A stretch of 57,965 nt of DNA from Escherichia coli. Its GTDB lineage: Bacteria > Pseudomonadota > Gammaproteobacteria > Enterobacterales > Enterobacteriaceae. This document shows, in pieces, positions 36,001 through 39,000 of this stretch. Position numbers: made by a program. The stretch's first letter is position 1. Every line of letters begins with the position of its first letter. The stretch lies in the NCBI RefSeq assembly GCF_003334765.1, contig NZ_QOWT01000026.1. One strand, written 5' to 3'.

Positions 36001-39000
36001 CGGCAGCAACACCACCAGCCCCAGGCCAATTGCTTTAAACAAATCTAACATTGGTGGTTGTTATCCTGTGTATCTGGGTTATCAGCGAAAAGTATAAGGG
36101 GTAAACAAGGATAAAGTGTCACTCTTTAGCTAGCCTTGCATCGCATTGAACAAAACTTGAACCGATTTAGCAAAACGTGGCATCGGTCAATTCATTCATT
36201 TGACTTATACTTGCCTGGGCAATATTATCCCCTGCAACTAATTACTTGCCAGGGCAACTAATGTGAAAAGTACCAGCGATCTGTTCAATGAAATTATTCC
36301 ATTGGGTCGCTTAATCCATATGGTTAATCAGAAGAAAGATCGCCTGCTTAACGAGTATCTGTCTCCGCTGGATATTACCGCGGCACAGTTTAAGGTGCTC
36401 TGCTCTATCCGCTGCGCGGCGTGTATTACTCCGGTTGAACTGAAAAAGGTATTGTCGGTCGACCTGGGAGCACTGACCCGTATGCTGGATCGCCTGGTCT
36501 GTAAAGGCTGGGTGGAAAGGTTGCCGAACCCGAATGACAAGCGCGGCGTACTGGTAAAACTTACCACCGGCGGCGCGGCAATATGTGAACAATGCCATCA
36601 ATTAGTTGGCCAGGACCTGCACCAAGAATTAACAAAAAACCTGACGGCGGACGAAGTGGCAACACTTGAGTATTTGCTTAAGAAAGTCCTGCCGTAAACA
36701 AAAAAGAGGTATGACGATGTCCAGACGCAATACTGACGCTATTACCATTCATAGCATTTTGGACTGGATCGAGGACAACCTGGAATCGCCACTGTCACTG
36801 GAGAAAGTGTCAGAGCGTTCGGGTTACTCCAAATGGCACCTGCAACGGATGTTTAAAAAAGAAACCGGTCATTCATTAGGCCAATACATCCGCAGCCGTA
36901 AGATGACGGAAATCGCGCAAAAGCTGAAGGAAAGTAACGAGCCGATACTCTATCTGGCAGAACGATATGGCTTCGAGTCGCAACAAACTCTGACCCGAAC
37001 CTTCAAAAATTACTTTGATGTTCCGCCGCATAAATACCGGATGACCAATATGCAGGGCGAATCGCGCTTTTTACATCCATTAAATCATTACAACAGCTAG
37101 TTGAAAACGTGACAACGTCACTGAGGCAATCATGAAACCACTTTCATCCGCAATAGCAGCTGCGCTTATTCTCTTTTCCGCGCAGGGCGTTGCGGAACAA
37201 ACCACGCAGCCAGTTGTTACTTCTTGTGCCAATGTCGTGGTTGTTCCCCCATCGCAGGAACACCCACCGTTTGATTTAAATCACATGGGTACTGGCAGTG
37301 ATAAGTCGGATGCGCTCGGCGTGCCCTATTATAATCAACACGCTATGTAGTTTGTTCTGGCCCCGACATCTCGGGGCTTATTAACTTCCCACCTTTACCG
37401 CTTTACGCCACCGCAAGCCAAATACATTGATATACAGCCCGGTCATAATGAGCACCGCACCTAAAAATTGCAGACCCGTTAAGCGTTCATCCAACAATAG
37501 TGCCGCACTTGCCAGTCCTACTACGGGCACCAGTAACGATAACGGTGCAACCCGCCAGGTTTCATAGCGTCCCAGTAACGTCCCCCAGATCCCATAACCA
37601 ACAATTGTCGCCACAAACGCCAGATACATCAGAGACAAGATGGTGGTCATATCGATAGTAACCAGACTGTGAATCATGGTTGCGGAACCATCGAGAATCA
37701 GCGAGGCAACAAAGAAGGGAATGATTGGGATTAAAGCGCTCCAGATTACCAGCGACATCACCGCCGGACGCGTTGAGTGCGACATGATCTTTTTATTGAA
37801 GATGTTGCCACACGCCCAACTAAATGCTGCCGCCAGGGTCAACATAAAGCCGAGCATCGCCACATGCTGACCGTTCAGACTATCTTCGATTAACACCAGT
37901 ACGCCAAAAATCGCTAAGGCGATCCCCGCCAATTGTTTGCCATGCAGTCGCTCCCCGAAAGTAAACGCGCCAAGCATGATAGTAAAAAACGCCTGTGCCT
38001 GTAACACCAGCGAAGCCAGTCCAGCAGGCATACCGAAGTTAATGGCACAAAAAAGAAAAGCAAACTGCGCAAAACTGATGGTTAATCCATACCCCAGCAG
38101 CAAATTCAGTGGTACTTTCGGTCGTGCGACAAAAAAGATAGCCGGAAAAGCGACCAGCATAAAGCGCAAACCGGCCAGCATCAGCGGTGGCATGTTATGA
38201 AGCCCCACTTTGATGACCACAAAATTTAGCCCCCATACGACCACTACCAGTAGCGCCAACACCCCATCTTTTCGCGACATTCTACCGCCTCTGAATTTCA
38301 TCTTTTGTAAGCAATCAACTTAGCTGAATTTACTTTTCTTTAACAGTTGATTCGTTAGTCGCCGGTTACGACGGCATTAATGCGCAAATAAGTCGCTATA
38401 CTTCGGATTTTTGCCATGCTATTTCTTTACATCTCTAAAACAAAACATAACGAAACGCACTGCCGGACAGACAAATGAACTTATCCCTACGACGCTCTAC
38501 CAGCGCCCTTCTTGCCTCGTCGTTGTTATTAACCATCGGACGCGGCGCTACGCTGCCATTTATGACCATTTACTTGAGTCGCCAGTACAGCCTGAGTGTC
38601 GATCTAATCGGTTATGCGATGACAATTGCGCTCACTATTGGCGTCGTTTTTAGCCTCGGTTTTGGTATCCTGGCGGATAAGTTCGACAAGAAACGCTATA
38701 TGTTACTGGCAATTACCGCCTTCGCCAGCGGTTTTATTGCCATTCCTTTAGTGAATAACGTGACGCTGGTTGTGCTCTTTTTTGCCCTCATTAACTGCGC
38801 CTATTCTGTTTTTGCTACCGTGCTGAAAGCCTGGTTTGCCGACAATCTTTCGTCCACCAGCAAAACGAAAATCTTCTCAATCAACTACACCATGCTAAAC
38901 ATTGGCTGGACCATCGGTCCGCCGCTCGGCACGCTGTTGGTGATGCAGAGCATCAATCTGCCCTTCTGGCTGGCAGCTATCTGTTCCGCGTTTCCCATGC

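What the first reader, a model, noticed from the sequence alone, without database searches (positions are those of the whole stretch)
36164..36262. Complete marRAB operator architecture
The marbox, the -35/-10 elements and both MarR palindromes (TTGCCTGGGCAA and TTGCCAGGGCAA) are all present and intact upstream of a GTG-initiated marR, so there is no sign of operator mutations of the kind found in mar-derepressed strains.
Basis: partly seen in the sequence, partly recalled or inferred. Interest (0 to 1): 0.25.

Follow-up and report, generated by a model that had tools for sequence, protein, structure and literature searches.

The report
Wild-type E. coli marRAB promoter-operator
This stretch is the ordinary, unmutated control region of the E. 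coli multiple-antibiotic-resistance (marRAB) operon, base-for-base the same as in the reference strain K-12 MG1655, so it is well known and gives no sign of a resistance-causing change at this locus.

Summary
Window 36164-36262 holds the marbox (36164-36183), -35 TTGACT (36200-36205), MarR site I core TTGCCTGGGCAA (36211-36222), -10 TATTAT (36223-36228) and site II core TTGCCAGGGCAA (36246-36257). The marR GTG follows at 36263.

Window 34143-38643 (3' part of ydeA, marC, marO, marRAB, eamA, start of ydeE) is identical to MG1655 NC_000913.3 1617000-1621500. marO, marR, marA and marB are therefore the reference wild-type alleles. None of the lesions I used as contrasts is present:
- the 20-bp duplication in marO;
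- a 35-bp deletion that fuses the two MarR sites;
- a marR frameshift or substitution.

The 102 bases of marO plus GTG are at least 99% identical in 5250 of 5419 E. coli records. In 43 other Enterobacteriaceae loci the marbox core, -35, -10, spacings and the non-ATG start are also conserved.

The window as a whole is not MG1655 (99.86% over the first 52 kb).

Limits: an intact marO/marR does not exclude a Mar phenotype caused elsewhere in the genome, and binding was not tested here.

Verdict: already known, ordinary, low interest.

The parts
36164..36183 (-). marbox. It binds MarA, and by established knowledge also SoxS and Rob. Read on the minus strand it is ATGCCACGTTTTGCTAAATC, so it lies in 'backward' orientation relative to the promoter.
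   Evidence: Exact sequence located. One mismatch to AYNGCACNNWNNRYYAAAYN on the minus strand. 16 bp upstream of -35. Core TTTNRC-N5-GTG present in all 44 aligned Enterobacteriaceae sequences at 15, 16 or 26 bp from -35.
36200..36205 (+). -35 hexamer TTGACT of the marRAB promoter
   Evidence: Promoter scan, 10 of 12 with a 17-bp spacer. TTGACT in 40 and TTGACA in 4 of 44 aligned sequences.
36211..36222 (.). MarR operator site I core, TTGCC-TG-GGCAA, between -35 and -10. A MarR dimer bound here would block RNA polymerase.
   Evidence: Position between -35 and -10 as described in PMC3920692 and PMC3832178.
36223..36228 (+). -10 hexamer TATTAT, directly abutting the site I core
   Evidence: TAATAT, TATTAT or TAGTAT in all 44 aligned sequences.
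36246..36257 (.). MarR operator site II core, TTGCC-AG-GGCAA, in the 5' leader 5 bp before the marR start codon. It overlaps the weak ribosome-binding region.
   Evidence: Described as 'near the translation start site' in PMC3920692. PMC10359894 states that one operator overlaps the marR coding region.
36263..36697 (+). marR, GTG-initiated, 144 aa. MarR-family winged-helix repressor, K-12 allele.
   Evidence: ORF. MG1655 annotation b1530. NCBIfam equivalog NF008565, 319 bits against a cut-off of 240. PDB 3voe, 5h3r and 1jgs. Wild-type GTG start stated in PMC10359894. GTG in 40 and TTG in 4 of 44 taxa.
36717..37100 (+). marA, AraC/XylS-type activator that binds the marbox (autoactivation)
   Evidence: MG1655 annotation b1531. 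NCBIfam NF008564, 294 bits against 202. PDB 1bl0 and 1xs9.
37132..37350 (+). marB, third gene of the operon
   Evidence: MG1655 annotation b1532. NCBIfam NF007508, 142 bits against 87.
35386..36051 (-). marC, the divergently oriented neighbour that bounds the 211-bp intergenic region holding marO
   Evidence: NF008228, 377 bits against 162.
36145..36159 (+). marbox-like direct repeat ATTGAACAAAACTTG, 20 bp upstream of the marbox. From memory this region corresponds to the 'accessory' Fis-binding region; that was not verified here.
   Evidence: the repeat finder family D2, 80% identical to 36165-36179. Not conserved outside Escherichia.

Best explanation
Window 36164-36262 is the wild-type promoter-operator (marO) of the chromosomal marRAB operon of Escherichia coli.

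How it works:
1. A sigma-70 promoter (TTGACT, 17 bp, TATTAT) drives marR-marA-marB.
2. MarR dimers bind two near-identical sites. Site I sits between and abuts the -35 and -10 hexamers and occludes RNA polymerase. Site II lies in the short leader just before the GTG start of marR and overlaps its weak ribosome-binding region. Together they keep the operon low.
3. Inducers, or mutations that inactivate MarR, release it.
4. MarA (and SoxS or Rob) then binds the marbox 16 bp upstream of -35 and activates the promoter further. This gives a negative loop plus a positive loop.
5. MarA goes on to raise AcrAB-TolC efflux and lower OmpF.

Shown here: the sequence, positions and spacings, identity to the reference, gene content, population conservation and cross-genus conservation.

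Taken from the literature or inferred: actual binding, repression and induction.
For: - Exact identity of window 34143-38643 to MG1655 1617000-1621500, annotated marC, marR, marA, marB.
- All elements and spacings located.
- The palindrome core is unique to these two sites in the window.
- MarR, MarA, MarB and MarC each pass the NCBIfam equivalog cut-offs and match solved MarR and MarA structures.
- marO plus GTG is at least 99% identical in 5250 of 5419 E. coli records. 28 of the 40 evenly spaced sample rows are 100% identical.
- In 43 other Enterobacteriaceae loci, found through the two palindromes alone, a MarR gene follows directly. Elements that were not searched for are conserved while the upstream flank is not: -35 0.98, start codon 0.97, -10 0.87 and marbox 0.80 mean identity, against 0.34 for the flank.
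- Literature: two MarR sites with site I between -35 and -10 and site II near the start codon (PMC3920692; PMC3832178; PMC5890708). In ChIP-seq MarR bound only the marRAB promoter (PMC5684230). The wild-type start is GTG (PMC10359894).
Against: Nothing in the sequence argues against it.

Limits:
- The primary footprinting papers (Martin & Rosner 1995; Martin et al. 1996) are not in the held library. Exact footprint borders and the transcription start therefore rest on secondary citations and on my memory.
- The cross-genus set was selected by requiring both palindromes. Their conservation in that set is circular.
- The marbox consensus by itself is at chance level.
Confidence: 0.97

Rival explanations
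1. The operator and marR are intact, yet the strain is still Mar-derepressed or multidrug-tolerant through lesions outside this locus (acrR, soxR, rob, lon, or a plasmid efflux pump). 'Intact marO' would then not predict the phenotype.
For: The window is not MG1655. It comes from a wild, K-12-like lineage (99.86% identity, an IS5 end at 1-77, a different Qin prophage). HUE1 shows that several regulators can be hit together (PMC3662882).
Against: There is no positive evidence. None of those loci lies in the window, and the mar locus itself is the reference allele.
Confidence: 0.08
2. The two 12-mers and the hexamers are chance matches with no regulatory role.
For: The marbox consensus alone is at chance level in the window. 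The promoter-like count in the 1.6-kb region is not above the shuffles (2 found against 2.4 expected).
Against: - The two exact palindrome cores occur nowhere else in 58 kb.
- The arrangement is identical to the characterised MG1655 locus.
- It is nearly invariant in about 5,400 E. coli genomes.
- The -35, -10, marbox and spacings are conserved across 43 other Enterobacteriaceae while the flanking DNA is not.
- MarR ChIP-seq isolates only this promoter (PMC5684230).
Confidence: 0.01
3. The K-12-lineage bases upstream of the marbox (G36078, G36133, A36150; most E. coli in my sample have T, A and C) alter accessory activation, for example by Fis, so this allele is regulated somewhat differently from that of most E. 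coli.
For: In a nine-sequence sample only the window and MG1655 carry G36133 and A36150. A36150 lies in the marbox-like repeat 36145-36159. About 20% of sampled records have a fully identical 211-bp intergenic region (8 of 40 evenly spaced rows).
Against: These are the bases of the reference strain on which the mar system was defined, so by definition they are 'wild type'. The region is not conserved across genera. No functional data were found.
Confidence: 0.05

Closest known systems
marO / marRAB promoter of E. coli K-12 MG1655 (NC_000913.3 about 1,619,021-1,619,119, upstream of b1530)
   Same: Everything. The sequences are identical over 4.5 kb including marC, marO, marR, marA, marB and eamA.
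   Different: Nothing at the locus. Only the wider window differs: 74 differences (72 substitutions, 2 one-base gaps) in the first 52 kb, an IS5 end at 1-77, an intact yneO and a variant Qin prophage.
marO of other Enterobacteriaceae (Salmonella enterica subsp. arizonae, Citrobacter, Raoultella, Pluralibacter, Atlantibacter, Trabulsiella and others)
   Same: - Two TTGCCNGGGCAA sites 23-24 bp apart.
- -35 TTGAC[T/A] five bases before site I.
- -10 TA[A/T/G]TAT abutting site I.
- A marbox core 15-16 bp upstream of -35.
- A GTG or TTG start 4-6 bp after site II.

   Different: The DNA upstream of the marbox is unrelated (0.34 identity). Most taxa have TAATAT rather than TATTAT. Two taxa carry the marbox 26 bp from -35, which is 10 bp (about one helical turn) more.
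mar-derepressed operator alleles: the HUE1 and UPEC957C 35-bp deletion, and the 20-bp duplication of GCAACTAATTACTTGCCAGG
   Same: Same locus and the same flanking sequence.
   Different: Those alleles lose or duplicate operator DNA. The 35-bp deletion fuses sites I and II and removes the -10 hexamer; HUE1 also has a marR frameshift and high marA mRNA (PMC3662882). The duplication is described in PMC3832178. The window has neither.
Operators of other MarR-family repressors (for example SlyA, MprA/EmrR, OhrR)
   Same: A dimeric winged-helix repressor binds short inverted repeats that overlap its own promoter. MarR gives weak family-level hits to those models.
   Different: Those are different proteins with different operator sequences. 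They lack the coupled AraC-type autoactivator and marbox.

Membership tests
E. coli marRAB promoter-operator (marO) | Two MarR-binding sites with TTGCC-N2-GGCAA inverted repeats: site I between -35 and -10, site II between the promoter and the marR start | tested here: met
   36211-36222 and 36246-36257. They are the only exact matches in the window.
E. coli marRAB promoter-operator (marO) | Sigma-70 promoter TTGACT, 17 bp, TATTAT | tested here: met
   (10 of 12, 17-bp spacer).
E. coli marRAB promoter-operator (marO) | A 20-bp marbox upstream of -35 for MarA/SoxS/Rob autoactivation | tested here: met
   36164-36183, one mismatch to the consensus on the minus strand, 16 bp from -35. Position conserved in 44 of 44 taxa.
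E. coli marRAB promoter-operator (marO) | Gene context: marR-marA-marB downstream, marC divergent | tested here: met
   NCBIfam equivalog hits above cut-off for all four proteins. MG1655 annotation.
E. coli marRAB promoter-operator (marO) | Sequence identity to the reference wild-type allele, with no known derepressing lesion | tested here: met
   Exact match over 4,501 bp. The 20-bp duplication unit is single copy and there is no 35-bp deletion. MarR is identical to the K-12 protein.
E. coli marRAB promoter-operator (marO) | MarR actually binds and represses, and salicylate or other inducers relieve repression | not testable with these tools
   Literature only. In ChIP-seq MarR bound only the marRAB promoter, in strain H10407 (PMC5684230). 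In the region aligned, H10407's two palindromes, -35 and -10 are identical to the window's.
MarR family of winged-helix repressors (the protein MarR itself) | Full-length match to the MarR equivalog model and to solved MarR structures | tested here: met
   NF008565, 319.3 bits against a cut-off of 240, residues 1-144. 3voe_A, E = 8.7e-94, residues 1-144.

The most novel reading that the evidence does not exclude
The most novel reading left open does not concern this window's allele but what its architecture makes possible.

The two MarR sites are also 15-nt direct repeats 35 bp apart. They may therefore act as a built-in deletion hotspot. Slippage or recombination between them yields a 35-bp site I/site II fusion that removes the native -10 hexamer and start region.

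I saw this deletion twice as independent events. HUE1 keeps the site I 'T' and UPEC957C keeps the site II 'A'. HUE1 has high marA mRNA.

If the fusion is itself derepressing, for example through a new -10 (TAATGT) that produces a near-leaderless, MarR-less transcript, it would be a recurrent natural route to Mar that marR-only sequencing overlooks. The window carries the intact, pre-deletion state.
Probability: 0.25. Interest if true: 0.3.

Novelty: already known. Interest (0 to 1): 0.04.

Why it matters
It matters only as a negative result. This strain's mar locus is the reference wild-type allele. Any multidrug-tolerance phenotype it might have cannot be put down to marO or marR mutations. 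The locus can serve as a clean baseline when scoring marO/marR variants in other genomes. The system itself has been a textbook paradigm since the 1990s.

Tried and rejected
- **Whole window as MG1655: rejected.** The window is 99.86% identical over the first 52 kb, with 74 differences, a different first 77 nt and a variant Qin prophage segment. The 4.5 kb around mar is nevertheless identical.
- **Primary papers: not held.** Reading Martin et al. 1996 (PMC177928), Martin & Rosner 1995 (PMC41713) and Grkovic et al. 2002 (PMC134658) failed. I used secondary open-access papers instead.
- **PMC11672702:** the search listed marO occurrences, but none is in the held part of the text.
- **Marbox consensus as independent evidence: rejected.** It is at chance level.
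- **Minus-strand promoter-like hexamers inside marO** (36252 to 36224, CTGGCA-17-GATAAT, 9 of 12): treated as chance, because the total count does not exceed the shuffles.
- **41-aa TTG ORF 36136-36261 across marO**: no support, treated as spurious.
- **Rfam:** no RNA family overlaps marO.
- **Frequency of the 35-bp deletion:** a search with the HUE1 allele returned only HUE1 as a single-piece full match among the 30 rows listed, so the allele is rare. The count is not exhaustive.
- **Literature search for that deletion:** nothing relevant was found.

Full report
**Observation**

I read window 35900-37500 and located each element exactly:
- marbox GATTTAGCAAAACGTGGCAT, 36164-36183
- -35 TTGACT, 36200-36205
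- site I core TTGCCTGGGCAA, 36211-36222
- -10 TATTAT, 36223-36228
- site II core TTGCCAGGGCAA, 36246-36257
- GTG at 36263, opening a 144-aa ORF

The spacings are 16 bp from marbox to -35, 17 bp from -35 to -10, 23 bp between the two cores and 5 bp from site II to the GTG. The finding's coordinates, 36164-36262, run exactly from the first base of the marbox to the base before the start codon.

Each 'palindrome' is a pair of 5-bp inverted arms, TTGCC and GGCAA, around a 2-bp centre. The two sites are also 15-nt direct repeats of each other, 93% identical and 35 bp apart.

**Is it more than chance?**

- TTGCCWGGGCAA occurs exactly only at these two places in the 58-kb window. With one mismatch allowed there are 4 hits against 0.93 expected.
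- The promoter scan reports TTGACT-17-TATTAT with 10 of 12 matches.
- The degenerate marbox consensus alone is at chance level: 2 hits with up to one mismatch against 1.7 expected. This agrees with the published remark that about 10,000 marbox copies occupy the genome and most are non-functional (PMC5684230).
- The marbox here is credible because of its identity to the characterised site and its conserved position, described below.

**Identity**

- A megablast of 36052-37350 against 5,426 complete E. coli genomes gives 100% matches to K-12 strains and others. All are annotated marR, marA and marB.
- I fetched MG1655 NC_000913.3 1617000-1621500. It is an exact substring of the window at 34143-38643. 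This stretch covers the 3' part of ydeA, then marC, the intergenic region, marR, marA, marB, eamA and the start of ydeE.
- The four proteins pass the NCBIfam equivalog cut-offs: MarR 319 bits against 240, MarA 294 against 202, MarB 142 against 87, MarC 377 against 162.
- MarR and MarA also match solved structures: 3voe, 5h3r and 1jgs for MarR, 1bl0 and 1xs9 for MarA.
- The window as a whole is not MG1655. It is 99.86% identical over the first 52 kb, with 74 differences there. The nearest to mar are at 31814 and 38745. Its Qin prophage part is identical to wild strains such as FORC 064 and ML35.

**Population context**

- The 102 bases of marO plus GTG are at least 99% identical in 5250 of 5419 matching records. 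28 of the 40 evenly spaced sample rows are 100% identical.
- The whole 211-bp intergenic region is at least 99% identical in 2197 records.
- In a nine-sequence alignment no natural variant touches the palindromes, the -35 or the -10. The three bases that set the window and MG1655 apart from most E. coli (36078, 36133, 36150) lie upstream of the marbox.
- MarR is the K-12 allele. The commoner allele differs by G103S and Y137H. One study found no significant association between that pair and any level of resistance (PMC4317672).

**What a damaged operator looks like**

The contrast cases came from the few records with incomplete matches.
- HUE1 (a fluoroquinolone-resistant clinical isolate) and UPEC957C (a canine isolate) both carry a 35-bp deletion between the two direct repeats. 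It leaves a single hybrid site and removes TATTAT.
- HUE1 keeps the T of site I and UPEC957C keeps the A of site II, so the two events are independent.
- HUE1 also has a frameshifted marR and strongly raised marA mRNA. Wild-type marR on a plasmid lowers it (PMC3662882). That paper reports only the frameshift.
- A 20-bp tandem duplication of GCAACTAATTACTTGCCAGG is a described marO mutation (PMC3832178). The unit is single copy in the window, at 36234.
- Other natural variants seen are a -10 change to TATTCT (CFSAN027343), a 1-bp deletion between the marbox and -35 (CUVET19-1426) and a C-to-T change in the marbox (E189).
- The window has none of these.

**Cross-genus footprint**

- One scan of 100,044 species genomes for TTGCCNGGGCAA-N18-28-TTGCCNGGGCAA gave 76 loci.
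- At least 43 of these lie in Enterobacteriaceae with a MarR homologue starting directly downstream. The rest are GC-rich chance hits with no MarR downstream.
- The palindromes were the selection criterion, so their conservation in this set is circular. Other elements are conserved without having been selected:
  - -35: 0.98 mean identity (TTGACT in 40, TTGACA in 4 of the 44 aligned sequences)
  - start codon: 0.97 (GTG in 40, TTG in 4, never ATG)
  - -10: 0.87
  - marbox: 0.80
  - flank upstream of the marbox: 0.34
- A marbox core TTTNRC-N5-GTG lies 16 bp from -35 in 37 sequences, 15 bp in 5 and 26 bp in 2. The last spacing is 10 bp longer, about one helical turn.

**Mechanism**

This is established knowledge with the sequence basis shown here. 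MarR dimers at site I, which overlaps the promoter hexamers, and at site II, in the leader overlapping the weak ribosome-binding region before a GTG start, repress marRAB. Loss of MarR binding, through inducers or mutation, lets RNA polymerase in. MarA, SoxS or Rob at the marbox then amplify transcription, and MarA activates acrAB-tolC and micF.

Secondary sources read here support several points:
- two MarR sites at these positions;
- MarR ChIP-seq isolating only this promoter;
- the wild-type GTG start, and one MarR operator overlapping the marR coding region.

Binding, repression and induction were not tested here. The primary footprinting papers are not in the held library. Exact footprint borders, the transcription start and the Fis or 'accessory' site rest on my memory and are marked as such.

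**Verdict**

The feature is the textbook marO in its reference form. It is already known and of very low interest.

Noticed in passing
L004 (HUE1) 2501-2600; L011 (UPEC957C) 2001-2070; corresponds to window 36208-36257: A 35-bp deletion between the two 15-nt direct repeats that hold MarR sites I and II. It leaves one hybrid site and removes the -10 hexamer. The two strains are independent events (T kept in one, A in the other). HUE1 overexpresses marA, but the published analysis mentions only its marR frameshift. I found no paper describing the deletion in the held library.
   Followed up: partly
L005 (ETEC H10407) 1-511; L004 (HUE1) 1817-2411; insertion point corresponds to about window 36132: Some E. 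coli carry a RelE/ParE-family toxin gene plus an HTH antitoxin gene between marC and the marbox-proximal part of the intergenic region. The pair replaces the marC-proximal intergenic DNA.
   Followed up: no
window 1-77: The window starts with 77 bases that do not align with MG1655 at this position next to ydeO. By my recollection they look like the terminus of an IS5-type element; no tool confirmed this.
   Followed up: no
window 9809-15229 (-): yneO is an intact 1806-aa ORF here. In MG1655 it is an annotated pseudogene split into 466-aa and 1325-aa ORFs. The window has one C fewer at about 11269.
   Followed up: partly
window 49497-53268 and 52216-52618: Most of the differences from MG1655 cluster in the Qin cryptic prophage (ynfT, ydfK, pinQ, tfaQ, stfQ, nohA). 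A window segment of about 400 bp replaces about 780 bp of MG1655. This version is identical in wild strains such as FORC 064 and ML35.
   Followed up: partly
window 39878-40091 (-), 51486-51684 (-), 55193-55578 (-): Rfam hits above the gathering score: STnc560 (the MgrR sRNA locus), IS009, and the cspA-type thermoregulator upstream of cspI.
   Followed up: no
window 36145-36159 vs 36165-36179: A marbox-like direct repeat (80% identical) lies 20 bp upstream of the marbox. It carries one of the K-12-lineage bases (A36150) and is not conserved outside Escherichia.
   Followed up: partly
L022 (Enterobacter sp. R1) and L057 (uncultured Buttiauxella), marO region: The marbox lies 26 bp instead of 16 bp from -35. 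The 10-bp insertion is about one helical turn.
   Followed up: no
L021 (MAG labelled Caldithrix sp., contig SMXE01000224.1) 6864-6910 (-): This contig carries the double palindrome followed by a MarR identical to the window's at 144 of 144 residues. It is almost certainly E. coli contamination of the metagenome bin.
   Followed up: no
L013 (CFSAN027343), L012 (CUVET19-1426), L010 (E189), marO region: Rare natural marO variants: -10 TATTAT changed to TATTCT, a 1-bp deletion between the marbox and -35, and a marbox C-to-T change with a T-to-C change just before the GTG. Their effects are unknown.
   Followed up: no
window 36224-36252 (-): A promoter-like pair CTGGCA-17-GATAAT (9 of 12) lies on the minus strand inside marO. 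The count is at chance level for the region.
   Followed up: no
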